Shown here: positions 4,077 to 59,440 of the stretch, piece by piece
Numbering within the stretch: the first letter of the stretch is position 1
Layout: the number at the start of each line of letters is the position of its first letter
The notes under the pieces: generated by a model
What the model saw: only the letters and a program-made list of their open reading frames with translations
What the model was told of the DNA's origin: nothing
Database searches by the model: none
From: a virus
Virus record (IMG/VR): IMGVR_UViG_3300008952_000005
Span: 1-64,000 of that record
DNA length: 64,000 nt
Direction: 5' to 3' (one strand)
Translations under genes and position numbers: made by a program

Positions 4077-4653
4077 ATTGATACCCAAACCAACCAGTTA
4101 TGATATATTTTTCGTGGGTCTTGGAAATTTGTCCGCTATGTGTATGTGTAAAGTCAGTCGGCCAAATCAAAGTCAAACCTTTTTCAGCAGGAGTTGTTGT
4201 ATTCTGATATTTAAAATGTGTACCACCGTTAGGAACATCATTTAAATAAGTCATCCAAACAAGACAACGGTTTTCGTGCCTGGAAGTTCTTTCACAATGC
4301 TTAGTAAAATAACCTCCACCTGGTGGATAATATTGTAAATTTCCTCCTTCAATCATTCCATATCTTTCAAACTCTTTAACTTCAGGATATTTCTCTTCGT
4401 ATAGACCAACACATTGTTTCAACACATTTTTATATTTCATAAACCGTGGTTCTTCCCAATTTGGATCTAATCCAATATCTATAGAATCTTTTACTTCTTT
4501 ATTAATTTTTGAAGTGAAACCTACAACACCTGGTTTTTGTGCTTGTTTATTCTCTTTAAATAAATTTATAAGTCCATCACAAATACCAGAAGGAATATAC
4601 CAACCTCCTATACAAGAAGTTGTTGGTATAATATATTCTCTATGTTTTGGCAT
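4072..4653 (-). CDS. 2OG-Fe(II) oxygenase (prolyl-4-hydroxylase-like)
   Basis: QYYPPGGGYFTKHCE, WMTYLNDVPNGGTHF, LIWPTDFTHTHSG, KYIITGW; typical of marine phage 2OG oxygenases. Confidence 0.85.
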   Translation of the reverse strand: MPKHREYIIPTTSCIGGWYIPSGICDGLINLFKENKQAQKPGVVGFTSKINKEVKDSIDIGLDPNWEEPRFMKYKNVLKQCVGLYEEKYPEVKEFERYGMIEGGNLQYYPPGGGYFTKHCERTSRHENRCLVWMTYLNDVPNGGTHFKYQNTTTPAEKGLTLIWPTDFTHTHSGQISKTHEKYIITGWFGYQL

Positions 4654-5857
4654 TACTTTGTATTGCACTTTTACCTCCACATTTTTTCATAGCCGCTTTT
4701 AGTTTTACTACCATATCAAAGATTAATGCGTCTGTATGAAATGGTGTAGGAGTAAATCTTAATCTTTCAGTACCTACAGGAACAGTCGGCCAATTAATAG
4801 GTTGTACATAGATACCTTCTTTATATAAAAGTTCATCTGATATTGCTTTAGCTCTTTTAGGGTCTCCAATAATTACAGGAACAATATGACTATCATTTTT
4901 CATAACTTCTATACCTTGTCTAGCAAGTTCTAATTTAGTTTTATTTGCTCTTTCGTGTATTTGTTCTCTTAATTCAGGATGGTCTCTAACATATTTAATA
5001 CTTGTTAAAGCACCAGCACAAATTACTGGACTTAAACTAGTTGTAAATATAAAAGCACTTGCCAAACTTCTTATGGCGTCAATAAAATCTTTTTTTCCTG
5101 CAATGTATCCACCTTGTACTCCAAATGCTTTTGCTAATGTTCCATTAATAATATCTACTTCTATATTATCTCTTTCAGTAATACCACCACCTGTTGCACC
5201 ATATAAACCAACAGCGTGTACTTCATCTAAAAATGTTATTGCATTATATTTTTTAGCTAGTTCTACTATTTCTTTTACTGGTCCAATATCTCCGTCCATA
5301 GAATATACACTTTCAAATACTACACATTTTGGACCTTCGTATGATTTTAAAATTCTTTCTAAATCTTCTACATCATTATGTTTAAATATTTCTTTCTTAC
5401 ATCTACTATGCCTAATGCCTTGTATAAGAGAAGAGTGATTTAATGAATCTGATATATACAATAATTCAGGTATAATTTTTCCTAAAGTTTCTAAAGTTGT
5501 TTGATTAGCATTATATGCTGAAGTAAATATTAATGCCTTTTCTTTTTTATGAAAATCTGCTAATTCTTCTTCTAAAGCATTATGATAGTGAGTAGAACCA
5601 GATATGTTTCTTGTACCTCCAGCACCTGCCCCACTTGATTCTAATGCTGTTTTCATTGAGTCTATAACATAAGAGTGTTGTCCCATACCTAAATAATCGT
5701 TAGAACACCAATTAACTATTTTTTTAATTGAGTATTTTGAATACCAAATAGCGTGAGGAAAGTTTCCTCTAGTCCTAACTATATCATTAAAGACACGGTA
5801 TCTTCCATCTTCTTTATATTCATTTATTATTTTTGTAAATTCTTCTAAATGTTTCAC
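4640..5857 (-). CDS. hemA: 5-aminolevulinate synthase (C4/Shemin pathway)
   Basis: WCSNDYLGMG, GAGAGGTRNISG, SDSLNHSSLIQG, FESVYSMDGD, DEVHAVGLYG, PLP-lysine GTLAKAFG, YVQPINWPTVP, ERLRFTPTPFH. Confidence 0.95.
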   Translation of the reverse strand: MKHLEEFTKIINEYKEDGRYRVFNDIVRTRGNFPHAIWYSKYSIKKIVNWCSNDYLGMGQHSYVIDSMKTALESSGAGAGGTRNISGSTHYHNALEEELADFHKKEKALIFTSAYNANQTTLETLGKIIPELLYISDSLNHSSLIQGIRHSRCKKEIFKHNDVEDLERILKSYEGPKCVVFESVYSMDGDIGPVKEIVELAKKYNAITFLDEVHAVGLYGATGGGITERDNIEVDIINGTLAKAFGVQGGYIAGKKDFIDAIRSLASAFIFTTSLSPVICAGALTSIKYVRDHPELREQIHERANKTKLELARQGIEVMKNDSHIVPVIIGDPKRAKAISDELLYKEGIYVQPINWPTVPVGTERLRFTPTPFHTDALIFDMVVKLKAAMKKCGGKSAIQSNAKT

Positions 5858-6144
5858 TTAACTATTACTCCTTCTATATGTGTATAACCTAATTGTTTAG
5901 CTGCCTGCACTCGTTGACTACCTCTCCACACACTATATTCTTTTTCTATATAGGGTATACCCATTGCACCGTATCTAGGTACTTCGGATACAATGTGTTC
6001 TTTTACTTCTATTGGATAATTTAATGATTCACCATCTAATAATTCTTTTAGTGGTGTCATTGACTTAATATAGATTAAGTCTTTTAGCTCTATAGGAATT
6101 TTATTCGCTATCTTTTGATTTGCCGTCAATAGTTTCATTTTCAT
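5854..6144 (-). CDS. hypothetical protein, ParB/Srx-like C-terminal motif
   Basis: VWRGSQRVQAAKQLGYTHIEGVIV resembles the ParB-N GxxR..AA..LG motif; overlaps gp16 and hemA. Confidence 0.5.
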   Translation of the reverse strand: MKMKLLTANQKIANKIPIELKDLIYIKSMTPLKELLDGESLNYPIEVKEHIVSEVPRYGAMGIPYIEKEYSVWRGSQRVQAAKQLGYTHIEGVIVK

Positions 6145-6607
6145 TTTTCTTTTCCATTTTTGTTTCCATAGTTTGCTTATTTAACATCTTCTGTAATTCA
6201 GCAGTTGACCCTACAAACAATGCATTTTTAATATTTGCATTTGTTCTATTAGGTAATTCTTTTAAGTCTTTAAATTTCTTTTGTAAATCTTGTAATTTAT
6301 CAACTGTAGTACCAACTTGTCCTATCAATTGACCAACAACTTCATAAGCTCTAGGGTGTTGTCCTTCTTTTGCAATATCTAATATACCTTGTATTGCTTC
6401 TTGTCCTTTTTCTATTATACTATAATAACTTTCTCTACTATAATCATAATCAGTATTAATATCTTTTTCAACTTTTAAAGGAACTTCTCCATTCTTTCTA
6501 GGAACAGGAACTTTAAACCCCTTTTGTGGTTCAAGGTTCTCTGGTATAACTTTATCTTTACCTTCCAAACCTAATATCTCATTAACACTTTCTTCCAATT
6601 TACTCAT
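6101..6607 (-). CDS. gp16: terminase small subunit gp16
   Basis: DYDYSRESYYSIIEKGQEAI, HPRAYEVVGQLI, NALFVGSTAELQKML as in marine T4-like gp16; follows gp15. Confidence 0.9.
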   Translation of the reverse strand: MSKLEESVNEILGLEGKDKVIPENLEPQKGFKVPVPRKNGEVPLKVEKDINTDYDYSRESYYSIIEKGQEAIQGILDIAKEGQHPRAYEVVGQLIGQVGTTVDKLQDLQKKFKDLKELPNRTNANIKNALFVGSTAELQKMLNKQTMETKMEKKNENETIDGKSKDSE

Positions 6608-7410
6608 TATTCATCTTCTCCTGTTACTGGATTATATTTCTTTGTATCATCATAGAAACTAATCTTTGTTGTAAATCCAAAATCATCATCTGCGTCTGCA
6701 CTTTCAGGATTTGGTATTACTATAATTCTTTCTTCTCTTGATAAAGGAGCATCCGTAGATGTTCCTAAATCTGCTTGTGATTTTCTAATAACTTTACTTT
6801 GTGCCATAGGTCCATATAAGTAAGTTTTAGCAGTAAACTGTAAAGTATATATAACAGCTCTACGCTTATTAAATTCACCATCATATGTATCTTCATATTG
6901 TACTTCATCTAAAACAATAGGCACGTCCCTTTTAATATTTAATTCTGGTATTGCATTAATAGTAACTGTATAGTCTGGTGCAAAATATGGTAATATTTGT
7001 TCAATTATCTGTAGTCCATTTTCTGCTGTAGCCGTAAAAGAATAAAGACTAAAACTTATATCATAGGGTACTGGTGAATAATTAAAATTATGTACAGTAG
7101 AATCAGAAGTTTTAACTCTAACTGTTTTTTGAAGTTTGTTTAGTTTTCTAGTGGCGTCATACTTTAAACCTGTTAATTCAAATCCCATTCTAGGTAATAC
7201 AATAGCAAACGTTTTACCTTTTTCTAAACTTGCTTGTTGGTCTATTCTGGCTATAAACTTTTCTTTAGGAGCGTATGCTAAAGGCACACGTATTCTTTTA
7301 GTAATAGCACCTGTACCAGATTTTTGTTGAATAATTATATTATTAAAAATCTGTCCAAATGCAATAGTTAGTCTTCTTAAACTTTGATTATAAAAGTGTG
7401 TTCCAAACAT
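6607..7410 (-). CDS. gp15: tail completion/sheath stabilizer gp15
   Basis: FYNQSLRRLTIAFGQIFNNI, VPLAYAPKEKF, LPRMGFE, QIIEQILPYF, YTLQFTAKTYLYGP. Confidence 0.95.
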   Translation of the reverse strand: MFGTHFYNQSLRRLTIAFGQIFNNIIIQQKSGTGAITKRIRVPLAYAPKEKFIARIDQQASLEKGKTFAIVLPRMGFELTGLKYDATRKLNKLQKTVRVKTSDSTVHNFNYSPVPYDISFSLYSFTATAENGLQIIEQILPYFAPDYTVTINAIPELNIKRDVPIVLDEVQYEDTYDGEFNKRRAVIYTLQFTAKTYLYGPMAQSKVIRKSQADLGTSTDAPLSREERIIVIPNPESADADDDFGFTTKISFYDDTKKYNPVTGEDE

Positions 7411-8243
7411 TATTCATCTATCTCCCCAAAAGGATTTCTTTCTGTAAAGTCAAGTATATCATCCGCTGTTGAAACAGTATCATATCCTGCCTCTTTATTC
7501 AAGTCTAAATTATCTGCATATGGAGATTGTGTCTGTATATTAGACTCTGTAAAATCTTCGTTCATTAAAAGTGCTGGTTGACCAGTTGAATAATCGTGAT
7601 AACTTTCTAATTGTACTGAACCTTTACCTGTCATAACTTCTTGTCCATATTCTAAAGTAAACTTATATGCTAATTGGTCTAGTGTATGTGTATCTTCGTG
7701 TTGGTCAATAGTAGATAAACCAGTATCAAGTTTTTCACTTGCATACTCCCAACGAGTTACTTTTAATTTATAAACTGGCAGATTGCCTAATTGGAAAAAT
7801 GGTTCTTGGTCTTCTACAAATAAAATTTCAAAAAAAGATTTCATCAAAGGCACATATATAATATCACCTTCGTTTGGTCTTCCTGTAACTGATAAAGAAG
7901 AACCAACCTGTGTTGCCTTATTACCAACTAAATTTGTCCAACTTCTTTTTGAAACCATTAATGATGTATCATCACGAATTTCTAATCCAAACTTACTTAT
8001 GATTTCTTGTTCACCAGCAAATCCTGTATTATTTTCAAAATACATTTCTATCAAATAAGAATCATCAAATCTACTAGATACATCTTCTCCTAGTATTAAA
8101 TCTTTATTGACTAATGTTCGTGGTAAGTAATAGACATCCTGACCGTAAATTTTAAGACCTTCAACTATTATATCTTCGTGTAGTCTTTTTTCGGCAGCAT
8201 TACCTATGCCTTTTCCACCTGAAAAGTAATGATTAACTGGCAT
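7410..8243 (-). CDS. gp14: neck protein gp14
   Basis: EGLKIYGQDVYYLPR, SKFGLEIRDD, RPNEGDIIY, EDQEPFFQLG, DFTERNPFG. Confidence 0.95.
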   Translation of the reverse strand: MPVNHYFSGGKGIGNAAEKRLHEDIIVEGLKIYGQDVYYLPRTLVNKDLILGEDVSSRFDDSYLIEMYFENNTGFAGEQEIISKFGLEIRDDTSLMVSKRSWTNLVGNKATQVGSSLSVTGRPNEGDIIYVPLMKSFFEILFVEDQEPFFQLGNLPVYKLKVTRWEYASEKLDTGLSTIDQHEDTHTLDQLAYKFTLEYGQEVMTGKGSVQLESYHDYSTGQPALLMNEDFTESNIQTQSPYADNLDLNKEAGYDTVSTADDILDFTERNPFGEIDE

Positions 8244-8247
8244 AGCA

Positions 8248-9069
8248 TTATCCTATCTGTAAAGGTAGGGGTTCCTCAAAATCGCTCCTTAATTTTATTT
8301 CTAATTTATCTAAAGCTTCTAACGCTTCACTATAAATTTGTTGACCGTTTAATGTAACTCCACCAATCATTGCAACACCATTAAATTTAGACAAATTAGC
8401 TCCCCATTGTTTTTTGAATAAAGCAGTTACGTATCTTTTTAACCAAATATCATTAAAGACATCTGTATATTGGTTAGGGTCTAATTTTCTCCAGCATTCT
8501 ATTACAAGAAATTCATCTACTTGTAAATCATTTTTCCAATCCATATCAACATAAAGTCTATTATCTAATTGGTTAAATCTATAAGGTTTTTCTCCGACTA
8601 ATATATGGTCTAAAAAATCTAAATGTCTTAATACAACATCATAGTTAATAACAGACGTTGAAGAAAAATCATATAGGTCATTTAATCTTAATTGATATCT
8701 AACATCAAATAAATTTAAATTACCTTTGTTTGAAAATGGAAATATATTAATTACAGATAAAACAGATTCAGGACATACAATATATCCATTACCTTCTTTC
8801 CATTCTGTATTTACTACAGAAGAATCACCATACGTTTTAGATTCGGTTTCAGTAGTATCTGCTAAAATTCTAGCTTTATCTGCTGATGTATACTTGTACT
8901 TTAAATAGGTTCTTTTAACACCATCATAGTGGTATTGAGAAAAATATTGTAATGCTTCATCTATTCTATCTTCTAGTTGGTCGTCATCAACATTGATTTC
9001 AATTACAGGTTTACCTAATGCTCTTAAAGCGTATTGTTTTATTGTTTCTCTGGATGCTGGTTTTGCCAT
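8248..9069 (-). CDS. gp13: neck protein gp13
   Basis: YALRALGKPVIEINVDDDQLEDRIDEALQ, KKQWGANLSKF, GGVTLNGQQIY. Confidence 0.95.
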   Translation of the reverse strand: MAKPASRETIKQYALRALGKPVIEINVDDDQLEDRIDEALQYFSQYHYDGVKRTYLKYKYTSADKARILADTTETESKTYGDSSVVNTEWKEGNGYIVCPESVLSVINIFPFSNKGNLNLFDVRYQLRLNDLYDFSSTSVINYDVVLRHLDFLDHILVGEKPYRFNQLDNRLYVDMDWKNDLQVDEFLVIECWRKLDPNQYTDVFNDIWLKRYVTALFKKQWGANLSKFNGVAMIGGVTLNGQQIYSEALEALDKLEIKLRSDFEEPLPLQIG

Positions 9070-9087
9070 ACTGGTTCCTTTATTGTA

Positions 9088-9095
9088 TATTTATA
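9088..9095 (-). promoter_or_regulatory. T4-type late promoter for gp13 operon
   Basis: Exact match, intergenic. Confidence 0.8.
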
Positions 9096-9102
9096 ATAAC
9101 AA

Positions 9103-9780
9103 TTATATCTTCGGAAACAAATTATCAGTACAGAATAGTTTTATATCATCTTCAGGCAGTCCAAGAGTTTTCATTACTCTAGGGGTGTGTGGATTTTGTT
9201 GTTGGTGTTCGCAATAAAAATTTTGTGCTCTTATTACATCTTCTTCCTTTGAATCGCTATTATAATGACCAATTTTGTCAAGATAATTTTCTAAATTAGA
9301 CGTAGCAAGAGTACATATTTGGTTTAATTCTTTCTCTTCTGTTATTCTTCCAGCGGCAATCATACCTGGACTAAAGATAGCCTTTGCCCAATCAGGCAAT
9401 TCTCTCACTTTAGATGGTTTAAACCACTTTGTTTCTTCTATGAAATACTTTGTTAAGGGATGTTCTTTTAATAATAGCGGACTATAATCGTGGAAAGCAC
9501 CTGTAACTTTATTCTTACCTGCAATAACATCAAAACCATAAATTGGACCACCATTAGTTAACATTGGAAATAAACATATGTGTGCCATCCAAAGACCTTT
9601 TGTTTCTCTAGCATCCACTACGTCTACGTGAGCACGTCTTACACTCATATTAGACCAAGTACGGTTAACCCAAGTATCATTATTAAATCTATCCATACCG
9701 TCTTCGTTGTATTCTTTACAACGTCTATCAAGTATAGCGATTATATCTTTTTCTAATTTAATTAGTCGTTCCCAAATCAT
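9103..9780 (-). CDS. pcyX: ferredoxin-dependent bilin reductase, PcyX/PcyA-like
   Basis: LWMAHICLFP, PIYGFDVIAG, GAFHDYSP, RELPDWAKAIFS, AQNFYCEHQQQNPHTPRVM; coupled to heme oxygenase. Family confident, PcyX vs PcyA subfamily less so. Confidence 0.82.
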   Translation of the reverse strand: MIWERLIKLEKDIIAILDRRCKEYNEDGMDRFNNDTWVNRTWSNMSVRRAHVDVVDARETKGLWMAHICLFPMLTNGGPIYGFDVIAGKNKVTGAFHDYSPLLLKEHPLTKYFIEETKWFKPSKVRELPDWAKAIFSPGMIAAGRITEEKELNQICTLATSNLENYLDKIGHYNSDSKEEDVIRAQNFYCEHQQQNPHTPRVMKTLGLPEDDIKLFCTDNLFPKI

Positions 9781-10378
9781 CTTTAACCTCGTTAGTTAAT
9801 ATTAAAGGTTTTGAATAATCCATATCGTTCATTTCTTTGAACAATTGTGTAGCAGTTGCAAAACAAAATTTAACTTCATTTAGAATATTAAGTTTATAAA
9901 CATTTAAATAACTGTTTATCATTTCTCTTACTATTCGTTTATACTCTTTTATTTCTTTATGTTTAAACTTGTAATAACGATTAGGTCCTGGTGTTTTTCT
10001 CATTATCATTTGACCACCAGATATATCTCCTAAATGTCTAGTATAGATATGACCATATAATTTTTCTGCGTCTTCTTTGATTGTTTCAATATGAGCAACA
10101 TAATCTTTAGTACTTTGAGTTACTGTTGGAAGGTCTTCACTTGTCCATAATGCTTTAAAATCATAATGTAAATGTTCTGCTCTAGGTAAATTAGGAGTTG
10201 TACGAAATAGAGAATTTTCTATTCCATATTTTTCTAATATAGCATAACATTGTAATTGATTGTAAAGATAGGTTGCATAAAGTCTAGGTTCAATAGAACC
10301 TGACATAAGAGTTTTGACAAACTCTTGTCTTTCTGCGTTTTGGTGTATATCTTTGGTTAATTCTTTGATGTCATACAT
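9758..10378 (-). CDS. hemO: heme oxygenase
   Basis: Proximal His in TKDIHQNAE; distal helix HIYTRHLGDISGGQMI; EVKFCF; upstream of bilin reductase. Confidence 0.92.
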   Translation of the reverse strand: MYDIKELTKDIHQNAERQEFVKTLMSGSIEPRLYATYLYNQLQCYAILEKYGIENSLFRTTPNLPRAEHLHYDFKALWTSEDLPTVTQSTKDYVAHIETIKEDAEKLYGHIYTRHLGDISGGQMIMRKTPGPNRYYKFKHKEIKEYKRIVREMINSYLNVYKLNILNEVKFCFATATQLFKEMNDMDYSKPLILTNEVKDDLGTTN

Positions 10379-10414
10379 AATAAAATACTTATCATAATAA
10401 AATCACTACATAAA

Positions 10415-10735
10415 TTAAGCTAGACCAGCGTCTGAAAGTCTTTTTGCTTCTGCAATTTTAGCTTTATTTAAATCATCAGCTTTTGTTTTCTCAGCAGCGT
10501 TTTCATCTGTTTGCGCTTGTTCTTTTGCTGTTAGAGCAGCCGCTTCATCACCGTCAGCTCCGCCAACTATTGTTAATTCTTTTGTTTCTGGATTAATTGA
10601 CATTCTCCACGATTCAATGTTATCAGGAACGTCATCAACTTTGATTGCTTGTCCTTTTGCTACTGCGTCATCTCCAGTTTCAGCATTTGGTGAAAAAGGT
10701 TCGCCTGCTAGTGTAAAGTAATATGTTCTTGCCAT
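10415..10735 (-). CDS. hypothetical protein
   Basis: Intact ORF with GGAG-type RBS, Ala/Lys-rich helical C-terminus. Confidence 0.7.
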   Translation of the reverse strand: MARTYYFTLAGEPFSPNAETGDDAVAKGQAIKVDDVPDNIESWRMSINPETKELTIVGGADGDEAAALTAKEQAQTDENAAEKTKADDLNKAKIAEAKRLSDAGLA

Positions 10736-10747
10736 CTCTATAATCTC

Positions 10748-12244: not shown

Positions 12245-12278
12245 TAAATGTTCTCCCCTAAAATTTTGTTTGTAATAC

Positions 12279-12286
12279 TATTTATA
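12279..12286 (-). promoter_or_regulatory. T4-type late promoter
   Basis: Exact match upstream of the 498-aa gene. Confidence 0.8.
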
Positions 12287-12302
12287 TAGTTTATATCTTT
12301 CA

Positions 12303-12929: not shown

Positions 12930-12944
12930 AATTCTCTTGATCCT

Positions 12945-12958
12945 TATTTATATTTATA
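12945..12958 (-). promoter_or_regulatory. two overlapping T4-type late promoter motifs
   Basis: TATTTATATTTATA contains two exact copies. Confidence 0.75.
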
Positions 12959-12998
12959 ATAGTTCTCTTCTATCATTTTAGTTAATTCAAATAATTTT

Positions 12999-14432: not shown

Positions 14433-14458
14433 TTATAATTCTCTTCTATATTTATTTA

Positions 14459-21748: not shown

Positions 21749-21783
21749 TTTTCTCTCTATTTACCTACTAATTTTGTCCATTT

Positions 21784-22404: not shown

Positions 22405-22426
22405 TTTATTTCTCTATATTTATTTA

Positions 22427-22774: not shown

Positions 22775-22789
22775 AATCTTTCAACAAAC

Positions 22790-23170: not shown

Positions 23171-23173
23171 AGT

Positions 23174-27963: not shown

Positions 27964-29228
27964 CCGTATATTACCATTACTCTCATTAAGTTATCCCAAA
28001 ACAAATCTGTTAAAAAATATCCATATAGTATTGGAAAAGTATCTACTCTCTTTAAATAATAACCTATTATACTTAATACAACCAATGATATTAACAACCA
28101 CTCTCTTACTGGATATATAATAATACTCATTAAAGAAATAAAAAGTAATATAAAATAAGTCAATACATTTTTATGTTTCTTCAAGTGATATGCTACCATA
28201 CCTAATAAATTAAAACACTTCCAAGATAAGAATAAACATATTGCTAATATGATTGGTATGTAATAGAATATATTAGTAAAGATAGATAGATTATCTACAT
28301 TAAAAACAAATCCTTGTGCTAGTATTAAATAGTAAATTAATACTTCACTACCAACAATAGGTATACCAAGTACTATTAAAGGTATCAAAGAACTTAACGC
28401 ACCACTATTGTTTGCTGATTCTGCTGCCGCTATTTTCTTTATATCTGTTTTAACTAAATTAGCACTTAAATAACTTCCTAAAATATTAGTTACTCCTGGT
28501 ACAAGACCACACCAAAAACCAACAAAACTTCCTACACCAGTTGCAGGTAATGTACTCTTTGCTATACCAAATTTTCTAATTGATTTTTGTTTAGACATCT
28601 TTAAATCTCTAAACTTTAATATTTCAGGTACAATATATAACCCTATCATTACAGCACTAAAAGGAATACCTAGAGTTAAATAGTCAAAACCAAATGTTCC
28701 CCAAGATTGAAAAGTTATATTATCAAATCCTATCTTTGCTAATATACCACCAAATAAAAATAGAAGTATAGTCTTCCATATCTTTTGTTTTGATAATAGA
28801 GTTAATAATAAAACTGCTAAACAAACAATAGATAGTTGTATAGTACTATTATAAAATTGAAATATACTATAGATACTAGGTAGAAATATTAAGAATAAAC
28901 CTATTGCAAATATAGAACCTAATGTACTTGAAATAGCATTAGTACTTACAGCAAGATGTCCTTCTCCCTTTAAGAATAGATTATGTCCGTGTCTAGCAGT
29001 AGTTACAGCGGCAGCGTCACCTGGTATTCCATAGAGAATACTTGTAACTGAATTTGTATAATTCGTTGTAAGAATAAGTGAAATATAAAATAGTAATATA
29101 TTAAAAGGGTCTAAAAAAAATAGTAAAGGATAGATTGTTGCAACTGCTAAAAAAGGTCCTGCACCAGGTATAATTCCGAAGACAACACCTGTCAATATTC
29201 CAATCAAACACCATACTAAACCAAACAT
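27960..29228 (-). CDS. tctA: tripartite tricarboxylate transporter large subunit TctA-like
   Basis: GILTGVVFGIIPGAG, ILYGIPGDAAAVTT..HG..L...GEG, GFWCGLVPGV, IAAAESANNSGALSSLIPLIVLGIP; multipass hydrophobic. Confidence 0.85.
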   Translation of the reverse strand: MFGLVWCLIGILTGVVFGIIPGAGPFLAVATIYPLLFFLDPFNILLFYISLILTTNYTNSVTSILYGIPGDAAAVTTARHGHNLFLKGEGHLAVSTNAISSTLGSIFAIGLFLIFLPSIYSIFQFYNSTIQLSIVCLAVLLLTLLSKQKIWKTILLFLFGGILAKIGFDNITFQSWGTFGFDYLTLGIPFSAVMIGLYIVPEILKFRDLKMSKQKSIRKFGIAKSTLPATGVGSFVGFWCGLVPGVTNILGSYLSANLVKTDIKKIAAAESANNSGALSSLIPLIVLGIPIVGSEVLIYYLILAQGFVFNVDNLSIFTNIFYYIPIILAICLFLSWKCFNLLGMVAYHLKKHKNVLTYFILLFISLMSIIIYPVREWLLISLVVLSIIGYYLKRVDTFPILYGYFLTDLFWDNLMRVMVIYG

Positions 29229-29713
29229 AACTGGTTATCAACGTCTATGGAAGATAAAGACTGGGTTTGATATGCTCCAACAATATGAATACGGTCTACT
29301 TTTGAACAATTTAAAGCAGTATGTTTTTGTGTTGTATCTATAACATACGCCGTACCATCAGCAGGTAAATGAACCATTTTACCATTTAATAACAACCAAC
29401 AATGTTCGTGTGTTTGTATTGGTATATGAAGTCTTTTAGTTTTATCATTATGCCAATAGTAGCAAGTTTTAGGTTTCATTTTCATTAATCTTGTTCTTAC
29501 AATATTATTAAATTTAATAATTGAATTAATATATGGTATATCAAATAGTGGAATATTAAAGTTTTTTTCAGTTTCATCAACAATTAAATAATTTTGACCA
29601 ATAGTAGGTGCAATAGGATTCATATCTTTAGTGTCACCTTGTAAATATATTTGATAATCATATTCAGGCAATGTTGATAATTCTTTTTTAATTCTTTCTA
29701 AATCGTATTTCAT
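29216..29713 (-). CDS. aspartyl/asparaginyl beta-hydroxylase-like 2OG-Fe(II) oxygenase
   Basis: RTRLMKMKP, WHND..KRLHIPIQT, HLPADGTAYVIDTTQKHTALN, DRIHIV. Confidence 0.8.
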   Translation of the reverse strand: MKYDLERIKKELSTLPEYDYQIYLQGDTKDMNPIAPTIGQNYLIVDETEKNFNIPLFDIPYINSIIKFNNIVRTRLMKMKPKTCYYWHNDKTKRLHIPIQTHEHCWLLLNGKMVHLPADGTAYVIDTTQKHTALNCSKVDRIHIVGAYQTQSLSSIDVDNQLCLV

Positions 29714-40092: not shown

Positions 40093-40096
40093 TTTA

Positions 40097-46153: not shown

Positions 46154-46162
46154 TTAACTCCC

Positions 46163-47623: not shown

Positions 47624-47641
47624 TCTTATTTCCTTTATCTA

Positions 47642-47649
47642 TATTTATA
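47642..47649 (-). promoter_or_regulatory. T4-type late promoter for gp8
   Basis: Exact match, intergenic. Confidence 0.8.
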
Positions 47650-47661
47650 CAAGTTTTCTAA

Positions 47662-48960: not shown

Positions 48961-48961
48961 T

Positions 48962-50464: not shown

Positions 50465-50485
50465 TTCTTCCTTAAATTACTTTAC

Positions 50486-50493
50486 TATTTATA
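50486..50493 (-). promoter_or_regulatory. T4-type late promoter for gp9-like gene
   Basis: Exact match, intergenic. Confidence 0.8.
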
Positions 50494-50498
50494 ATCAT

Positions 50499-53084: not shown

Positions 53085-53090
53085 TTGTCA

Positions 53091-54944
53091 TTAATAACTG
53101 GAAGTAGTTGTGTATCCCACACCTGCCTCAGCACTTCCTCCTACAAAACTATCGGCAGTAACCGTTATAGTTGAATTTGCAATATCCATTTCAACAATTT
53201 GGTCTCTAACTGGAACAACATCATTAGAACTTGGTGTTACTGTTAATTCAACTACTGTTGAAGTTGTGCCTCTAATATTTGATATACTAGCAATGTTTAA
53301 TGAATTAAGTGTTATTGCACCTGTGCTATAATCAATTGTTCCTTGTGTTGAATTTAAATAAGATTTTACTCCACTTGCTACATAATATAAACGAACATTA
53401 CCTGCGCCGTCATCATCAAAAAAGCATTCGTTATCATTACCATCAATTTTAAATCCAGATGAACTTAATATTCCACCTGTACTTGCCATATGTCCAGAGT
53501 GTGGATTATATAATGCATTTCTAAAATAGATATTATATTTTGAAGATGTTAAAAGTATCGGTTGGAAAACTTTTCTTATTTTAACAGTTGTTATGTTTGA
53601 TAAAATACTATCGTCTGTACCATCAATCAAACCTGTTACCTTTGAATATCTGAATACTGAATCAAACTTTTGTAAGTTTTCTAAATTATAATTTATTAAT
53701 GTATCAATAACATCTGCCTTTATAGTATCAGAAGTTTTTGCTGTTGCCTTTGCGTCATACTTAACATTTGAAGTAATTAATACAGAAGTTGTTTCTGGAT
53801 CTTTTATAATTGGTCTTACTGAAGCAACGTTATAAGGTTTTAATTGAGTTACTATATCTGCTTTTGATGTATCTGATAATACTGTTCCTGATTTTGCTTT
53901 AATAGAAATATTTACAACACCGTAAGTTGGAGTTTCGTCATCTTCACCACCCCACGCACTTACTGATAATGCATTTGGATAAATTGATTTAACTATTGTT
54001 TCATAGTCAGTTGCTGTAACTGCTCTATCTTGAGCGGCATAATTTAATGGTGCATTAAATTTTATTGATTGATTTGATTCTGAAACTGAACCACCTTGTG
54101 AATTTGAATCAGTTGTTATAGTTACGTCTGTATAACCACCAATGTTTCCTGATAAATTAAATTTTGAAGCACCGTTTGATTCTTCTTGATTGGTAACAAT
54201 ATATTCTAAAATAATTATATTACCATCATCTAATTTCTTACCTGTTACACCATCACCAAAATAAATTTCAAACTGACCATCTTGACTCTCTTGTATAAAA
54301 TAAACTTTTGAAGAACTTGATACATTATTATAACCACCAGCTAAAGTAAAAACACTTTGTGTTGTATCTGTATTACTATTTTGAACTGTAACTTTTAAAG
54401 TTGAAGTATCTGCACTAATAGATGGTATCAAAAATCTTTGGTCACTATCAGTTGCGTCAGCTGTATATTTAAATGTAACCAATGTTCCTTCATAAAGAGT
54501 TACATTTTCAAATGTATAAACTCCATTTACTGGTGCAATTGTTATATCTGAATTAGTTGTATATTGATAATCTATTTTATCAACTGTAGTTGTGAAAACT
54601 GTTCCCTTCTGCATTGTAACTGAGGAACCTATTGCGCCATTAACAAGAATATCAATAGACGCTCTTGGTGCTCTCGGAGATGATGGAGTATAACCTAACA
54701 TCTTCGCAATTGATACAATATTATTTCTAATATCAGCACTATCCAAATACATTTCATTAGTTGACATATTAGCAATATATGACAAATAGTGAGTGTTGTA
54801 AGATAGTAAATCTATTAGAATAGATAAACCAGAACCTTCAAAATCAAAATCTTGAAATTGTGTTTGACTTTGTAAAAAAGTTTTTAAATTTACTTTAATT
54901 TTATCAAAATCTAATTCTGATACATTTAATTTATGTTGCGACAT
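53091..54944 (-). CDS. gp6: baseplate wedge protein gp6
   Basis: LDFDKIKVNLK, DFDFEGSGLSILIDLLSYNTHY, FGDGVTG, AQDRAVTATDY, WGGED. Confidence 0.95.
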   Translation of the reverse strand: MSQHKLNVSELDFDKIKVNLKTFLQSQTQFQDFDFEGSGLSILIDLLSYNTHYLSYIANMSTNEMYLDSADIRNNIVSIAKMLGYTPSSPRAPRASIDILVNGAIGSSVTMQKGTVFTTTVDKIDYQYTTNSDITIAPVNGVYTFENVTLYEGTLVTFKYTADATDSDQRFLIPSISADTSTLKVTVQNSNTDTTQSVFTLAGGYNNVSSSSKVYFIQESQDGQFEIYFGDGVTGKKLDDGNIIILEYIVTNQEESNGASKFNLSGNIGGYTDVTITTDSNSQGGSVSESNQSIKFNAPLNYAAQDRAVTATDYETIVKSIYPNALSVSAWGGEDDETPTYGVVNISIKAKSGTVLSDTSKADIVTQLKPYNVASVRPIIKDPETTSVLITSNVKYDAKATAKTSDTIKADVIDTLINYNLENLQKFDSVFRYSKVTGLIDGTDDSILSNITTVKIRKVFQPILLTSSKYNIYFRNALYNPHSGHMASTGGILSSSGFKIDGNDNECFFDDDGAGNVRLYYVASGVKSYLNSTQGTIDYSTGAITLNSLNIASISNIRGTTSTVVELTVTPSSNDVVPVRDQIVEMDIANSTITVTADSFVGGSAEAGVGYTTTSSY

Positions 54945-54947
54945 TTA

Positions 54948-55430
54948 TTATCTTAACCTTTGTAATTCTACCGACATTGATTGTGGACCTGGCACTCCAA
55001 TAATATAAAAATGTATTTCAACTACTAATCTATTACTATCAACATCATCACCAAATGGACTGTTAGTTACAAAATTATTATCATTAATAACGATAGATGT
55101 TATACTTATTCTTGGTTCGTGATTTTGTAAAACTTCTTCTATTTTTCTTTTTAAAAATATAGAAGTCATTGGTGTATAATTTTCAAAAAGAAGTTGTCTT
55201 ACACCACACCCCAATTCTGGATGAAAAGGTCTCTCATAGTAATTTGTTAATATCAAATTTCTTACAGACCTCTTTATAGCATTAGCATCCTCAAGTGTAC
55301 CAATATCGTTGGTAATTGGATGCCTAGTAAAATTTAAATCTATATCTTTAAACTTCCTAGATTGCCTCGTACTAGAGCTTTTTACCTCACTAGTATAATC
55401 TGATTTAAATTTCTGATTTTGTTGTCCCAT
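54948..55430 (-). CDS. gp25: baseplate wedge protein gp25
   Basis: DIDLNFTRHP, AIKRSVRNLILTN..ERPFHPELG, LFEN, HEPRI. Confidence 0.93.
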   Translation of the reverse strand: MGQQNQKFKSDYTSEVKSSSTRQSRKFKDIDLNFTRHPITNDIGTLEDANAIKRSVRNLILTNYYERPFHPELGCGVRQLLFENYTPMTSIFLKRKIEEVLQNHEPRISITSIVINDNNFVTNSPFGDDVDSNRLVVEIHFYIIGVPGPQSMSVELQRLR

Positions 55431-55438
55431 ACTGTATA

Positions 55439-55446
55439 TATTTATA
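55439..55446 (-). promoter_or_regulatory. T4-type late promoter for gp25
   Basis: Exact match inside inverted repeat ACTGTATA-TATT-TATACAGT. Confidence 0.75.
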
Positions 55447-55450
55447 CAGT

Positions 55451-55753
55451 TTATCCCGCTCTTACGTTAGATGAACCTTGATACATTGCTCCAAAATCAA
55501 AAGAATCTCCAATTCTTGCTACACCCTTACCTTCAGCACGAACTGTTGTTGACGCCATATTAACTTTAGCTCCACCGTGTGGGACACAATAAATACCTAC
55601 AAGCCACGTATGTGGTAAAGCAGGATCATTAAGTCTAACAATTGGTATACCATTTGCTTTAACTGTAAATTGTGTTGCTTTAACTCCTATAACTGCTGTA
55701 CAAGGATGTCCTGTTGTACCTAAATCTATTGTATCCCTACAAATTTTTGGCAT
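55451..55753 (-). CDS. PAAR-like spike tip protein gp5.4
   Basis: TVKANGIPIVRLND, H...C.PH, VRAEGKGVARIGD, GSSNVRAG. Confidence 0.85.
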   Translation of the reverse strand: MPKICRDTIDLGTTGHPCTAVIGVKATQFTVKANGIPIVRLNDPALPHTWLVGIYCVPHGGAKVNMASTTVRAEGKGVARIGDSFDFGAMYQGSSNVRAG

Positions 55754-55757
55754 TACT

Positions 55758-55862
55758 TTATGCTAATATCCAAATGGCTACTATAACTATTAATACCCAA
55801 TTAGGTACTGAACTTTTAGTAAACCATTCTTTTACTTTTTTCGTGTCTATTGGTTCTATCAT
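55758..55862 (-). CDS. small membrane peptide (34 aa), absent from ORF track
   Basis: MIEPIDTKKVKEWFTKSSVPNWVLIVIVAIWILA; ATGA overlap with bL12 stop, ends 5 nt before PAAR start. Confidence 0.55.
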   Translation of the reverse strand: MIEPIDTKKVKEWFTKSSVPNWVLIVIVAIWILA

Positions 55863-56221
55863 TTTACCTCTATTTTTCCTCCAGCAGACTCAATGTCTGC
55901 TTTTATTTTATCTACTTCTTCTTTTTGTTGGTCTTCTGCAATTACAGAAGGGACTCCTTCAACAAAATTCTTTGCTTCTAGTAATCCCATATCTTTAAAT
56001 GCTCTAATTGCTTTAATTACACTAATTTTTTTATCAGGATCAAAACCTGTTAGTGTAATTTTGAATAAAGACTCTTCTTTTTCTTCTACTACTGCCGCTG
56101 GTGTACTCATTATAGCATTTAAATCTAAACCCCAAGTCTTTTCAAGTTTTTTTGCTAATTCACCCGCTTCAATAACTGTTAATTTTCCCAATTGTTCTAC
56201 TAACGTATCAATATTACTCAT
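55859..56221 (-). CDS. rplL: 50S ribosomal protein bL12 (L7/L12)
   Basis: LVEQLGKLTVIEAGELAKKLEKTWG, KISVIKAIR, GLLEAKNFVEGVP, KADIESAGGKIEVK; both domains present. Confidence 0.93.
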   Translation of the reverse strand: MSNIDTLVEQLGKLTVIEAGELAKKLEKTWGLDLNAIMSTPAAVVEEKEESLFKITLTGFDPDKKISVIKAIRAFKDMGLLEAKNFVEGVPSVIAEDQQKEEVDKIKADIESAGGKIEVK

Positions 56222-56224
56222 AAT

Positions 56225-56431
56225 TTACTTTCCTAACTTGTCTTTTCTACCAATAGGTAGTTTTTGCCACTTGGTCATCTCTTGACCTTTCTTACTTATC
56301 CACTCAATAAAGATTAATGGCGTTTTTACTTTATTTTGGAAAGATTTAACTGCCTTTTTCCAACTCGTAGCAGATATTTCTTGATTTATTTCTTTATTAT
56401 CTGTAAATTTAAACTTTTTTTCTTTTGACAT
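56225..56431 (-). CDS. small basic hypothetical protein
   Basis: MSKEKKFKF...ISATSWKKAVKSFQ...WISKKG; start reset to 56431. Confidence 0.65.
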   Translation of the reverse strand: MSKEKKFKFTDNKEINQEISATSWKKAVKSFQNKVKTPLIFIEWISKKGQEMTKWQKLPIGRKDKLGK

Positions 56432-56570
56432 TCTGTTTATTCCTTTTCGCACTACATTTTTTATCATCACATCTACAATATTTACAGATTTCCAATTTTC
56501 TTGCTTCCATCATTTCGTACTTTGGCTTTCCGCAATGGGATTCTCTCCCACAATTGTTGCAATAAGTCAT
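56409..56570 (-). CDS. small Cys-rich putative metal-binding protein (53 aa), absent from ORF track
   Basis: MTYCNNCGRESHCGKPKYEMMEARKLEICKYCRCDDKKCSAKRNKQNVKRKKV; ATG 8 nt downstream of late promoter. Confidence 0.7.
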   Translation of the reverse strand: MTYCNNCGRESHCGKPKYEMMEARKLEICKYCRCDDKKCSAKRNKQNVKRKKV

Positions 56571-56577
56571 AATATAG

Positions 56578-56585
56578 TATTTATA
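56578..56585 (-). promoter_or_regulatory. T4-type late promoter for Cys-rich/bL12/PAAR operon
   Basis: Exact match, intergenic. Confidence 0.8.
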
Positions 56586-56677
56586 CTAAAAATTACAAAG
56601 ATAAATTGCTTCCCGATTCGGAAATTTGTCTATATCATAGGAAAATCTGCAATTATGAACGTTTCCACAAGAAACTA

Positions 56678-56692
56678 GAACAAAAAGCGAAC
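56678..56692 (+). promoter_or_regulatory. alphaproteobacterial-type LexA box
   Basis: GAAC-AAAAAGC-GAAC (GAAC-N7-GAAC), context TAGAACAAAAAGCGAACA. Confidence 0.55.
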
Positions 56693-56741
56693 ACATAACT
56701 AAAAAAACCTTGATTTTTCTCATTTTTTTTAAATTTTTCCC

Positions 56742-56770
56742 TTGACTTTCCTAAATTTTTAGTGTATATT
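56742..56770 (+). promoter_or_regulatory. sigma70-type promoter
   Basis: TTGACT-17 bp-TATATT upstream of AAGGAG RBS. Confidence 0.7.
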
Positions 56771-56798
56771 TAACGTATAAGTTGAAAAGGAGAACATT

Positions 56799-57005
56799 AT
56801 GAAAAAAATACTTGAATATTTAACAATTATTTTATCAATAGGAGGAACTTTCTGTCTAATCGGCGCTGTCGGCGCAATTGACGGCGGTTATAACGGAATT
56901 CCTATGAACGATAATTGGTTTTTATGTGGTACTTTGTCATTGTTAGGAATTGCTATGTTTATTTTAGCATTATACTCGCAAACGTTGTATTCTGAACAAG
57001 ACTAA
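56799..57005 (+). CDS. small two-TM membrane protein
   Basis: Two hydrophobic helices; AAGGAG RBS and sigma70 promoter upstream. Confidence 0.7.
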   Translation: MKKILEYLTIILSIGGTFCLIGAVGAIDGGYNGIPMNDNWFLCGTLSLLGIAMFILALYSQTLYSEQD

Positions 57006-57880
57006 TTACTAGATTTTAATAAATAGCCTATCTCTAATCCTAGCTCATCTGCTTTATCAATAGTTTTAGATGATTTTGAATAGAATCTATCTTTACCATC
57101 TGGTGAAAATAGTTCTGCTTCAAGATTTATCGTATTACCATCAATATTTGCAAATACACCTACCGCTGTATCACAATCTCCTTCTATAATCTTAAGCACG
57201 TTCCTTTCTGCCTTAACACAATTGTGTGTTTCTGTATGATTAACACTTTCTAATAACTCAATTATCTCTTCATCATTATCTCTACATTGTAAAGCAATAA
57301 CTCCTTGACCAGCACAAGGTATCATTTCACTAGTAGAAAACGTTTGAGAAATCTTGTTCTCTAAACCTAATGATTGAATTCCTGCATAAGACAAAATTAT
57401 AGCGTCAAATAAACCATCATTTAGTTTTTTAATTCGTGTATCAACGTTTCCTCTTATTAACTTATAATTAAGGTCTTCTCTTATTCTTTTTAATTGGAAT
57501 TCTCTTCTAAATGAAGAAGTACCTATAATTGAATTTGGAGCTAAATCTTTTAAGTGTTTATTATCTCTACTAATTAAAATTTCTCTTGGATCGTTTCTTT
57601 CTAAAAAACAGTTTGTTAATAAACCTTCTGTTTCTTCCGTTGGCATATCTTTTAATGCGTGGACGGCTATATCTATTTTTTTACTTAATAATTCTTCTTC
57701 AATCTTTTTAGAAAATAGTCCTTTACCTCCAGCTTCAGAAAGTCTTACATCTTTAAGTTGGTCGCCCTTGGTTTCAATTTCTTTGATAATTACTTCTTTG
57801 TTTAATACTGCTTTAGCTTTTTCAGCATAGATACGTGCTAATTTACTTCCTCTTGATCCTATTATAAGTGATGTCGGCAT
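57002..57880 (-). CDS. hemC: porphobilinogen deaminase (hydroxymethylbilane synthase)
   Basis: IIGSRGSKLA, TKGD, GGKGLFSKKIE, DIAVHALKDMP, REDP-like RNDPRE, IGTSSFRR, IRGNVDTR, cofactor Cys in EGDCD. Confidence 0.96.
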   Translation of the reverse strand: MPTSLIIGSRGSKLARIYAEKAKAVLNKEVIIKEIETKGDQLKDVRLSEAGGKGLFSKKIEEELLSKKIDIAVHALKDMPTEETEGLLTNCFLERNDPREILISRDNKHLKDLAPNSIIGTSSFRREFQLKRIREDLNYKLIRGNVDTRIKKLNDGLFDAIILSYAGIQSLGLENKISQTFSTSEMIPCAGQGVIALQCRDNDEEIIELLESVNHTETHNCVKAERNVLKIIEGDCDTAVGVFANIDGNTINLEAELFSPDGKDRFYSKSSKTIDKADELGLEIGYLLKSSN

Positions 57881-58656
57881 AATCGTCTTGCACCATAAGT
57901 TATCATATAACAAGCACCTGCTCTTTTGAATATGTGATATGTTTCTTCTAAACTACCAGGCGCACCAATACCTAACCATTCTCCAGATGTTTGATATACA
58001 CCTACAGGTTTCTTTGTAATATTTCTTATTGGTTCAATTAAGTCTAAACTTGTCATACCAGGTTTTACCATTAATTCATCTGCGCCATCATCTGAATATT
58101 TTATAGACCTTGCAATTGCCTTATGTCTATCGCTAACATCTAATTGATAGGGTCTATGAATACCTTTTGGTATCTTCATTACATCACGCCAACCTCTATA
58201 AAATGTTGAACGAAATTTTGTACTATAACTCATTACAGGTATCTGACCATTATTAATTGATTTAATATTCTTAACTGTATTGTCTTGACAATCACTTGGC
58301 GCTACTGTAGCACCTGACGCTGTGTAAATCTCTACGGCTGATTGTAGTAATAGGTCATCTGTTTTTTCTTGGTCTCCTGTTACACAACAATGTCCGTCTT
58401 GCGTGTAAGAACATAAACATACATCAACATTTAATTTTATAGGTAACGTTGAAAGACTAGCGGCAGTTAAACAAACTTCCTCAAAGTTAAATAACTTTAA
58501 TTCAGGTATGTAAAATAAAAGAAATTCTTTTACTCCTAAATCAATATCTTTCTTAACACGTTCTTTAACTTCTTTTGCATTAAAGATTTTATTATCTTCT
58601 CCTAGTCCAGTTTCTCTTGTAGTATTACTGGCGAATATCGGTTGTATTAATCTCAT
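57862..58656 (-). CDS. hemB: porphobilinogen synthase (ALA dehydratase), shortened, Zn-type
   Basis: DVCLCSYTQDGHC (CxCx7C), VAPSD, VMSYSTKF (first Schiff-base Lys), YQLD, GADELMVKPG (second Lys), YQTSGE, RAGA..MITY. Confidence 0.9.
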   Translation of the reverse strand: MRLIQPIFASNTTRETGLGEDNKIFNAKEVKERVKKDIDLGVKEFLLFYIPELKLFNFEEVCLTAASLSTLPIKLNVDVCLCSYTQDGHCCVTGDQEKTDDLLLQSAVEIYTASGATVAPSDCQDNTVKNIKSINNGQIPVMSYSTKFRSTFYRGWRDVMKIPKGIHRPYQLDVSDRHKAIARSIKYSDDGADELMVKPGMTSLDLIEPIRNITKKPVGVYQTSGEWLGIGAPGSLEETYHIFKRAGACYMITYGARRLCRHHL

Positions 58657-58660
58657 TATA

Positions 58661-59440
58661 TTATTCTTCCCATATCGCACCTGGTGGCATAGACATTAAT
58701 ATTGCTTCAGGATTTCCTCCACTTCTCAATCCAAACTTTGTTCCTCTATCATACATTAAATTAAATTCAACGTATCGTCCACGTTTTAATAGTTGTGTGT
58801 ATTTATCTTGCTTCGTATATTTTAAATTCATCTTTGGTGTTATAATCTCTTTAAGTAATTGACAAAAGGTTCTACCAACATCTTTAACAAATTCAAAATG
58901 TTTCTTACCATATTTGTAATCAAAGAAGATACCACCTACACCTCTTGTTTCTTCTCTATGGGGTAAATAAAAATACTCATCACACCATTTCTTATATGTT
59001 TTGTAATAAAGTTTATTATGTCTATCACATAATTGTTTTAATCTGTAATGCCATAAATTTCTTTCTACATCATCTTTCAAACACGGTGTCATATCTGTAC
59101 CACCACCAAACCAACTTTTTTCTGTTTCAATATATCTTGTATTAAAATGTATTGCAGGTACTTTAGGATTCTTTGGATGTAATACTACTGATACTCCTGT
59201 TGACCAGAAGTTTCTACTATGTTTTGTACCAGGGATTTCTTTTGCAAAGTCTTTTGGAAACTTACCTACAACATTACTAAAGGTGACACCTCCCTTTTCA
59301 ATCACATCACCTTTAATTGTTTTAAAGTTACCAAATTTCCATTTGTTATCTTTAAATTTTGCTTTAGTTTCTAACTCTTCAATAGTCTGACAAATTAACT
59401 TTTGCAACTCCATAAACCATTGCAACGCTTCTTGTTTCAT
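58661..59440 (-). CDS. hemF: oxygen-dependent coproporphyrinogen III oxidase
   Basis: EKGGVTFSNV, HPKNPKVPAIHFNTRY, WFGGGTDMTP, WCDEYFYLPHREETRGVGGIFFD, RGRYVEFNLMYDRGTKFGL, ILMSMPP. Confidence 0.96.
   Translation of the reverse strand: MKQEALQWFMELQKLICQTIEELETKAKFKDNKWKFGNFKTIKGDVIEKGGVTFSNVVGKFPKDFAKEIPGTKHSRNFWSTGVSVVLHPKNPKVPAIHFNTRYIETEKSWFGGGTDMTPCLKDDVERNLWHYRLKQLCDRHNKLYYKTYKKWCDEYFYLPHREETRGVGGIFFDYKYGKKHFEFVKDVGRTFCQLLKEIITPKMNLKYTKQDKYTQLLKRGRYVEFNLMYDRGTKFGLRSGGNPEAILMSMPPGAIWEE

What the first reader, a model, noticed from the sequence alone, without database searches (positions are those of the whole stretch)
4640..59440. Phage-encoded tetrapyrrole pathway from ALA to heme and on to bilin (hemA, hemB, hemC, hemF, hemO, pcyX)
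Seen: six intact tetrapyrrole enzymes with catalytic motifs, in three loci among T4-like virion genes. Known: HemA, HemB and HemC make hydroxymethylbilane from glycine and succinyl-CoA. HemF acts three steps later, and HemO plus PcyX/PcyA convert heme to biliverdin and a phycobilin. HemO-PcyX pairs are known from marine phages. I am not aware of a phage also carrying this much of the upstream synthesis. Inference: the phage pushes flux from ALA to a bilin in a host that probably has no phycobilisomes, so the product has an unexplained role (light sensing, photoprotection, iron release or a virion chromophore). hemD, hemE, hemG/J/Y and hemH were not seen in this window.
Basis: partly seen in the sequence, partly recalled or inferred. 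Interest (0 to 1): 0.93.

Follow-up and report, generated by a model that had tools for sequence, protein, structure and literature searches.

The report
SAR11 phage heme genes, host gap
A virus of SAR11, the ocean's most abundant bacteria, carries six heme-pathway genes (five already reported in this phage group), and checking its hosts showed that most SAR11 genomes lack both known ways of starting heme synthesis and instead carry an unstudied oxygenase that may be a third way.

Summary
All six genes are real and intact, in a complete 177-kb pelagimyophage (SAR11 T4-like phage). The set is less new than claimed. ALAS+hemO+pcyX is published (PMC11480375), and hemF/hemC were noted in a deep-water pelagimyophage (PMC7029224). 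Other phage contigs carry more steps, and this scan noted such genes on other DNA. HemB is an arm-less Zn-type enzyme from a widespread viral clade that I did not find in papers. HemD/E/J/H come from the host; no bilin-binding protein was found.

The important result is in the host. Of 151 Pelagibacteraceae genomes, 147 have hemB, none has glutamyl-tRNA reductase, and only 21 have ALAS. In 128 ALAS-less genomes an uncharacterised Fe/2-oxoglutarate dioxygenase ('gene X', PF05118) is present, usually in the ALAS slot beside hemB; no genome has both. Related phages place X directly after viral hemB or in a hemO-pcyX-hemE-hemC-X cassette. X resembles amino-acid beta-hydroxylases. Hypothesis (untested): X oxidises 2-aminoadipate to 2-amino-3-oxoadipate, which decarboxylates to ALA. 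This phage's ALAS would then replace an oxygen-dependent host route rather than duplicate a host enzyme. Against: outside SAR11, X co-occurs with ALAS in 7 of 8 genomes.

The parts
4640..5857 (-). ALAS (valaS, Shemin-pathway hemA), between gp16 and gp17
   Evidence: TIGR01821 566 > 339; 53-55% identical to SAR11 clade-III-type ALAS; same position in L250-L259
9088..9095 (-). T4-type late promoter motif upstream of the gp13-gp14-gp15-gp16-orf96-ALAS gene run
   Evidence: 11 of 15 minus-strand motifs lie just upstream of a gene start, p=1.6e-10; consensus match only
9103..9780 (-). pcyX, ferredoxin-dependent bilin reductase (PcyX type, expected product phycoerythrobilin)
   Evidence: PF05996; E 3e-115 to PDB 5OWG PcyX_EBK42635
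9758..10378 (-). hemO, heme oxygenase, overlapping pcyX
   Evidence: PF01126; His12, His115
12279..12286 (-). late promoter motif upstream of the gene run that ends in hemO-pcyX
   Evidence: consensus match only
57002..57880 (-). hemC, hydroxymethylbilane synthase, captured from Pelagibacter
   Evidence: TIGR00212; 75-78% to Ca. Pelagibacter; nested in Pelagibacteraceae, sister to the P. communis/Uisw clade, SH-aLRT 86
57862..58656 (-). hemB, minimal Zn-type porphobilinogen synthase without the N-terminal arm (264 aa), not derived from the host core copy
   Evidence: PF00490; model pLDDT 95, TM 0.90 to solved PBGS; about 31% to host Mg-type HemB and 42% to an island HemB; viral clade support 99
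58661..59440 (-). hemF, O2-dependent coproporphyrinogen III oxidase
   Evidence: NF003727 331 > 297; 57-60% to Pelagibacter HemF
58657..58660 (-). hemF-hemB junction where five close relatives carry a 277-aa U32-like gene that is cleanly absent here
   Evidence: DNA alignment; atlas lead PF01136, 16% of members
59440..60222 (-). 2OG-Fe(II) oxygenase directly upstream of hemF (not gene X)
   Evidence: PF13759; present in most relatives of this locus
61412..61419 (-). late promoter motif heading a gap-free minus-strand run from 61392 to hemC
   Evidence: junction gaps -77 to +4 nt
29216..29713 (-). distant, short PF05118 homologue of host gene X (24-29% identity), probably not an orthologue

Best explanation
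This is a pelagimyophage infecting Pelagibacter, and the six genes are late-expressed auxiliary metabolic genes that keep heme supply and turnover running in the infected cell. SHOWN: the gene identities and intact catalytic residues; no hemD/E/J/H in the phage; Pelagibacter genomes encode HemB, C, D, E, F, J and H but neither ALAS nor the C5 enzymes; gene X (an Fe/2OG dioxygenase) and ALAS are mutually exclusive in SAR11 and occupy the same slot beside hemB. [quoted passage not shown] Phage ALAS does not duplicate a host enzyme. It is one of two interchangeable entry modules that these phages carry (ALAS or X), and it gives the infected cell an O2- and Fe-independent first step that the host lacks, which would fit the deep-water habitat reported for the relative PMP-MAVG-4.
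For: Phage group: DNA polymerase 73.7% to Pelagibacter phage Mosig, next best 50%; HemC nested in Pelagibacter. Host steps present. Host entry absent: ALAS over cut-off in 19 of 151 plus 2 contig-end fragments, GluTR 0 of 151, HemL 0 of 61. Gene X in 128 of 151, none with ALAS; X in the ALAS slot in 31 of 35 hemB loci. Viral hemB-X in 20 loci and hemO-pcyX-hemE-hemC-X in L243; ALAS or X alternate just after gp5 (L269 vs L190-L193). Mosig has X but no ALAS. Two 77-83% complete phages have a bilin reductase and X but no ALAS. Late promoters. Ferredoxin. Published activity of vAlaS, vHemO and a freshwater vPcyA: PMC11480375.
Against: No enzyme was assayed and no expression data were obtained. The host is inferred, not shown. 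HemF and HemO still need O2, so the oxygen argument covers only the first step. ALAS consumes glycine, which SAR11 must obtain from outside (own knowledge). Arm-less PBGS may be poorly active, since the arm builds the active oligomer in cellular enzymes (own knowledge). The SAR11 anti-correlation may reflect only two or three evolutionary events. The viral contigs are fragments chosen by query.
Confidence: 0.65

Rival explanations
1. One reading: the genes form one pathway whose purpose is a bilin with a role of its own (light sensing, photoprotection, virion chromophore).
For: hemO-pcyX is kept across many phages and often sits next to ALAS or hem genes; PcyX costs reductant, which iron release alone does not require; expression is probably late.
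Against: No GAF domain and no phycobiliprotein or globin family among the 25 of 29 Pfam families shown for 65 unassigned ORFs; the synthesis genes come and go independently of hemO-pcyX; the one published relative with hemF/hemC recruits below 200 m.
Confidence: 0.15
2. Most SAR11 are true ALA auxotrophs that take ALA from seawater; gene X does something else and merely sits in the slot; phage ALAS relieves the auxotrophy during infection.
For: No known entry enzyme. Outside SAR11, 7 of 8 alphaproteobacteria with X also have ALAS, and X lies beside a threonine/GntG aldolase in 4 of them, which suggests amino-acid catabolism. Most viral X loci (55 of 79) have no tetrapyrrole gene nearby.
Against: Pelagibacter ubique HTCC1062 grows in defined medium without ALA (own knowledge; the paper was not held; that strain was not searched by name). 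Phages have linked X to a non-host hemB and to hemO-pcyX-hemE-hemC. SAR11 lacks the aldolase (query-based).
Confidence: 0.2
3. The hemF-hemB-hemC genes are short-lived passengers in a hypervariable locus, with little function.
For: Gene content at this locus differs among close relatives; the set skips HemD and HemE.
Against: dN/dS 0.15-0.42; catalytic residues are almost invariant over 58 viral HemBs down to 45% identity; unrelated phages have captured hemB/C/E/F repeatedly.
Confidence: 0.07

Closest known systems
Viral ALA synthase (valaS) with hemO and pcyA/X, Wegner et al. 2024, PMC11480375
   Same: Same three genes, the 'broken cassette' layout (hemO-pcyX together, valaS nearby), pelagiphage origin, about 55% identity to Pelagibacteraceae AlaS.
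   Different: The paper has no hemB, hemC or hemF and states that Pelagibacteraceae use the Shemin pathway, so that vAlaS supports a host AlaS; 130 of 151 genomes searched here have no ALAS.
Deep-ecotype pelagimyophage PMP-MAVG-4, Zaragoza-Solas et al. 2020, PMC7029224
   Same: PMP-A group; coproporphyrinogen oxidase, porphobilinogen deaminase and GMP reductase listed as unique genes; L12 and S21 ribosomal proteins, curli genes.
   Different: Mentioned in one sentence; no hemB, ALAS or pathway analysis. Whether G000 is the same genomospecies was not tested.
PcyX_EBK42635 and HemO of marine phages (PDB 5OWG; Ledermann et al., own knowledge)
   Same: Full-length match, E 3e-115, same residues at the catalytic positions.
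   Different: Here it shares a genome with four synthesis enzymes.
Zn-dependent porphobilinogen synthases (human 1E51, E. coli 1B4E)
   Same: TIM-barrel fold (TM 0.90), three Zn cysteines, two Schiff-base lysines, lid arginines.
   Different: About 60 residues shorter with no N-terminal arm; forms a clade of 263-286 aa proteins whose checked contexts were all viral; host core HemB is the Mg type.
Cpz10 alpha-amino-acid beta-hydroxylase (PDB 7V4F; PMC9814697), closest solved relative of gene X
   Same: Best sequence and fold match (E 5e-15; TM 0.83 by target); His-x-Asp...His and Arg motif of 2OG enzymes.
   Different: 24% identity; Cpz10 acts on a nucleoside-antibiotic intermediate; the substrate of X is unknown.

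Membership tests
5-aminolevulinate synthase (TIGR01821) | score above the curated cut-off; PLP lysine; outranks BioF/Kbl | tested here: met
   566 > 339; BioF and Kbl models below their cut-offs; Lys243
Hydroxymethylbilane synthase (TIGR00212) | cut-off; catalytic Asp and dipyrromethane-binding Cys | tested here: met
   318 > 164; Asp78, Cys236
O2-dependent coproporphyrinogen oxidase HemF (NF003727) | cut-off and conserved motifs | tested here: met
   331 > 297
Porphobilinogen synthase | fold, two lysines, Zn-binding cysteines | tested here: met
Porphobilinogen synthase | N-terminal arm and full length (NCBIfam equivalog cut-off) | tested here: not met
   264 aa, begins at the first barrel strand; 144 < 297 bits
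Porphobilinogen synthase | catalytic activity and oligomer state | not testable with these tools
PcyX (not PcyA) | closer to PcyX_EBK42635 than to PcyA; below the PcyA equivalog cut-off | tested here: met
   386 vs about 44 bits; NF002760 80 < 206
Complete phage heme pathway | hemD, hemE, protoporphyrinogen oxidase, ferrochelatase in the genome | tested here: not met
   hemG/hemY not searched by family
Pelagimyophage (SAR11 T4-like) | core genes closest to Mosig/HTVC008M; host-derived genes from Pelagibacteraceae | tested here: met
Pelagimyophage (SAR11 T4-like) | infection of a SAR11 strain | not testable with these tools
   metagenomic record
Gene X as an ALA-forming enzyme | complementary distribution and synteny with ALAS inside SAR11 | tested here: met
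   128 X only, 21 ALAS only, 0 both, 2 neither with the hemB region cut or missing
Gene X as an ALA-forming enzyme | complementary distribution outside SAR11 | tested here: not met
   7 of 8 alphaproteobacteria with X also have ALAS
Gene X as an ALA-forming enzyme | ALA formation | not testable with these tools
   needs complementation or enzyme assay

The most novel reading that the evidence does not exclude
Most SAR11 bacteria make 5-aminolevulinate by a third, undescribed route using the Fe/2OG dioxygenase gene X. The most plausible chemistry is oxidation of C3 of L-2-aminoadipate to 2-amino-3-oxoadipate, the classical ALAS intermediate, which loses CO2 to give ALA; elsewhere the same beta-hydroxylation feeds an aldolase that releases glycine and succinate semialdehyde. 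Their phages carry either X or ALAS as interchangeable entry modules, and this phage swaps in the O2-independent one. Probability that X is needed for ALA formation: about 0.5. Probability of the aminoadipate mechanism specifically: about 0.25.
Probability: 0.45. Interest if true: 0.95.

Novelty: new variant of a known kind. Interest (0 to 1): 0.76.

Why it matters
Only two routes to ALA (Shemin and C5) are recognised. If the dominant SAR11 lineages use neither, a basic step in the metabolism of the most abundant ocean bacteria is unexplained, and this analysis names one gene and one cheap test (complementation of an E. coli ALA auxotroph). It also changes the published reading of viral ALAS from 'extra copy of a host enzyme' to 'route the host lacks'. 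The arm-less Zn HemB is a natural minimal porphobilinogen synthase, useful for testing whether the oligomer-forming arm is needed for catalysis. The six-gene set itself is an extension of known phage tetrapyrrole genes.

Tried and rejected
Chimeric host insertion: rejected (synteny in independent contigs, matching composition, phage-specific HemB).

Missing steps elsewhere in the genome: none for hemD, hemE, hemH or hemJ. Bilin receptor: none found.

Isolated phages with hemB/C/F or ALAS: hits in the GenBank phage collection were only 28-43% identical, in records that look like host-DNA contamination or transduced bio genes.

Phage HemB as a copy of the host's core HemB: rejected (about 31% identity, different metal site). 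Its join with the island HemB of one SAR11 subclade is flagged as a long-branch meeting, and the tree was the quick version.

My recollection that PDB 7V4F is BelL/HrmJ was wrong; it is Cpz10. A hoped-for HemB-X fusion was not found (P0370 is a primase-like chimera). Three further X contigs gave no informative neighbours.

Literature: ten searches found no report of viral hemB, of the ALA gap in Pelagibacter, or of an aminoadipate route. Two papers I wanted were not held, and subscription journals are mostly missing, so absence from the literature is not established.

Full report
Observation. The window is the first 64 kb of a complete 177,460-bp T4-like phage with terminal repeats. The six genes are present and intact. 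ALAS (4640-5857), HemC and HemF pass their curated NCBIfam cut-offs; HemO and PcyX pass Pfam; HemB passes Pfam but not the equivalog cut-off. Catalytic residues are in place. True starts are 58656 for hemB and 57880 for hemC. Composition matches virion genes, each locus lies in a gene run headed by a T4 late-promoter motif (11 of 15 motifs upstream of genes, p=1.6e-10), the loci are syntenic in independent contigs, and hemB/C/F are under purifying selection. The genome has no hemD, hemE, hemH or hemJ, no GAF domain and no bilin-binding family among the families shown for unassigned ORFs, but it has a 2Fe-2S ferredoxin.

What phage and host. DNA polymerase is 73.7% identical to Pelagibacter phage Mosig. 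HemC is 75-78% identical to Ca. Pelagibacter, the best 80 genome hits are all SAR11 (Pelagibacterales), and it nests beside the P. communis/Uisw clade with moderate support. HemF is 57-60% identical to the host enzyme. HemB is different: a 264-aa Zn-type enzyme without the N-terminal arm. It folds as a porphobilinogen synthase (pLDDT 95, TM 0.90), is about 31% identical to the Mg-type host enzyme, and belongs to a clade of about 70 short-protein clusters found in pelagimyophages and jumbo phages.

Prior art. Wegner et al. (PMC11480375) describe valaS with hemO and pcyA/X in pelagiphage-like contigs and show activity. Zaragoza-Solas et al. (PMC7029224) list coproporphyrinogen oxidase and porphobilinogen deaminase in a deep-water pelagimyophage. 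So five of the six genes are on record for this phage group; I found no paper on viral hemB. The set is neither unique nor the largest. Close relatives swap hemF for a host-derived hemE (80% to Pelagibacter), other lineages have hemE-hemF-hemC with ALAS, and a jumbo contig has hemF-hemC-hemE-hemB, ALAS and a bilin reductase. Earlier notes of this scan report the same theme on other DNA, including a jumbo phage with seven of eight steps.

The host gap. Five Pelagibacter genomes, four of them complete, encode HemB, HemC, HemF and HemH; hemD, hemE and hemJ were confirmed in the loci inspected. None gave an ALAS or glutamyl-tRNA reductase match. Across 151 Pelagibacteraceae genomes, hemB was found in 147, GluTR in none over cut-off, HemL in none of 61, and ALAS in 19 plus two contig-end fragments. 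In most ALAS-bearing genomes inspected, ALAS lies divergent from hemB and upstream of rpiB. In ALAS-less genomes the same slot holds a 195-213 aa PF05118 dioxygenase, gene X (31 of 35 hemB loci). X was found in 128 genomes and never with ALAS; the two genomes with neither have the hemB region cut or missing. One subclade lacks X and has a katG-ALAS-hemCD-hemB-hemE-hemH island instead. These tallies include two unpublished genomes, G038 (ALAS) and G089 (X); removing them gives 20 and 127 and changes nothing. The genomes are related, so the pattern may rest on only two or three events.

Phages repeat the link. Viral orthologues of X (about 45-60% to the host protein) follow the non-host viral hemB, directly or one gene on, in 20 loci of close relatives, where this genome has hemC. 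An unrelated phage has hemO-pcyX-hemE-hemC-X. ALAS or X occupy the position after gp5 in different relatives (L269 versus L190-L193). Among 24 longer contigs, 11 had an X orthologue only, 11 ALAS only and none both; these are fragments selected by query. Mosig has X and no ALAS. This genome has ALAS and only a distant X homologue.

What X may do. Its closest solved relative is Cpz10, an alpha-amino-acid beta-hydroxylase. In other alphaproteobacteria X is rare (8 of 400 outside SAR11), usually coexists with ALAS (7 of 8), and in 4 cases is coupled to a threonine/GntG-type aldolase, the pairing expected for beta-hydroxylation followed by glycine release. SAR11 lacks that aldolase (query-based). 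Oxidation at C3 of 2-aminoadipate would give 2-amino-3-oxoadipate, the ALAS intermediate that decarboxylates to ALA (established chemistry); with an aldolase the hydroxy intermediate would give glycine and succinate semialdehyde. This reconciles both contexts but is pure inference: neither the substrate nor a supply of aminoadipate in SAR11 was tested, and the coexistence with ALAS outside SAR11 counts against a simple replacement rule.

Verdict. The best reading is a late-expressed set of auxiliary genes that feeds and recycles host heme, with the bilin as a by-product. As a phage gene set this is a new variant of a known kind and would merit about 0.5. The raised score of 0.76 rests on the host gap and gene X, which lie outside the window, are supported by comparative genomics only, and are directly testable.

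Noticed in passing
L121:759-1400 (minus); L038:10876-11493; L243:5968-6567: Gene X, a PF05118 Fe/2OG dioxygenase that replaces ALAS beside hemB in most SAR11 and is linked to hem genes in phages; candidate third route to ALA. About 45 genomes carry a second paralogue elsewhere.
   Followed up: yes
L007:7860-8693; window junction 58657-58660: A 277-aa Cys-rich, U32-like (possible Fe-S) viral protein sits between hemF and hemB in five close relatives and before hemB in others; cleanly absent from this genome. Function unknown.
   Followed up: partly
L009:3312-4711: Relatives carry ybaN (DUF454) and a host-derived hemE (80% to Pelagibacter) in place of hemF.
   Followed up: partly
L286:96-7588 (G011; also G023, G028): One SAR11 subclade has a katG-ALAS-hemC/hemD-like fusion-hemB-hemE-hemH island whose HemB is Zn-type, largely arm-less and the closest cellular relative of the viral HemB.
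   Followed up: partly
L030:8564-11372; L032, L034, L036 at 10001: Jumbo phages carry pyrF-hemF-hemB-hemO, or hemB directly after the major capsid gene gp23.
   Followed up: partly
L278, L279, L283, L284: In non-SAR11 alphaproteobacteria gene X is coupled to a low-specificity threonine/GntG aldolase: a likely undescribed amino-acid catabolic pair that yields glycine.
   Followed up: partly
window:55859-56221 (minus): 120-aa ORF at the position where relatives encode ribosomal protein L7/L12 (Pfam hit on the L007 copy); S21-like gene at genome 154639-154842. Both are reported for pelagimyophages.
   Followed up: partly
genome 147603-147941 (L005:3603-3941, minus): 2Fe-2S ferredoxin next to DNA polymerase; plausible electron donor for HemO and PcyX.
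   Followed up: partly
window:26046-36698: Low-GC island with transporter-like, radical-SAM-like and glycosyltransferase-like genes in both orientations, including the X-like gene at 29216-29713.
   Followed up: no
genome 114541-121532: Curli-like secretion genes and a divergent cyclase-like gene (earlier scan notes; curli operon published for this group).
   Followed up: no
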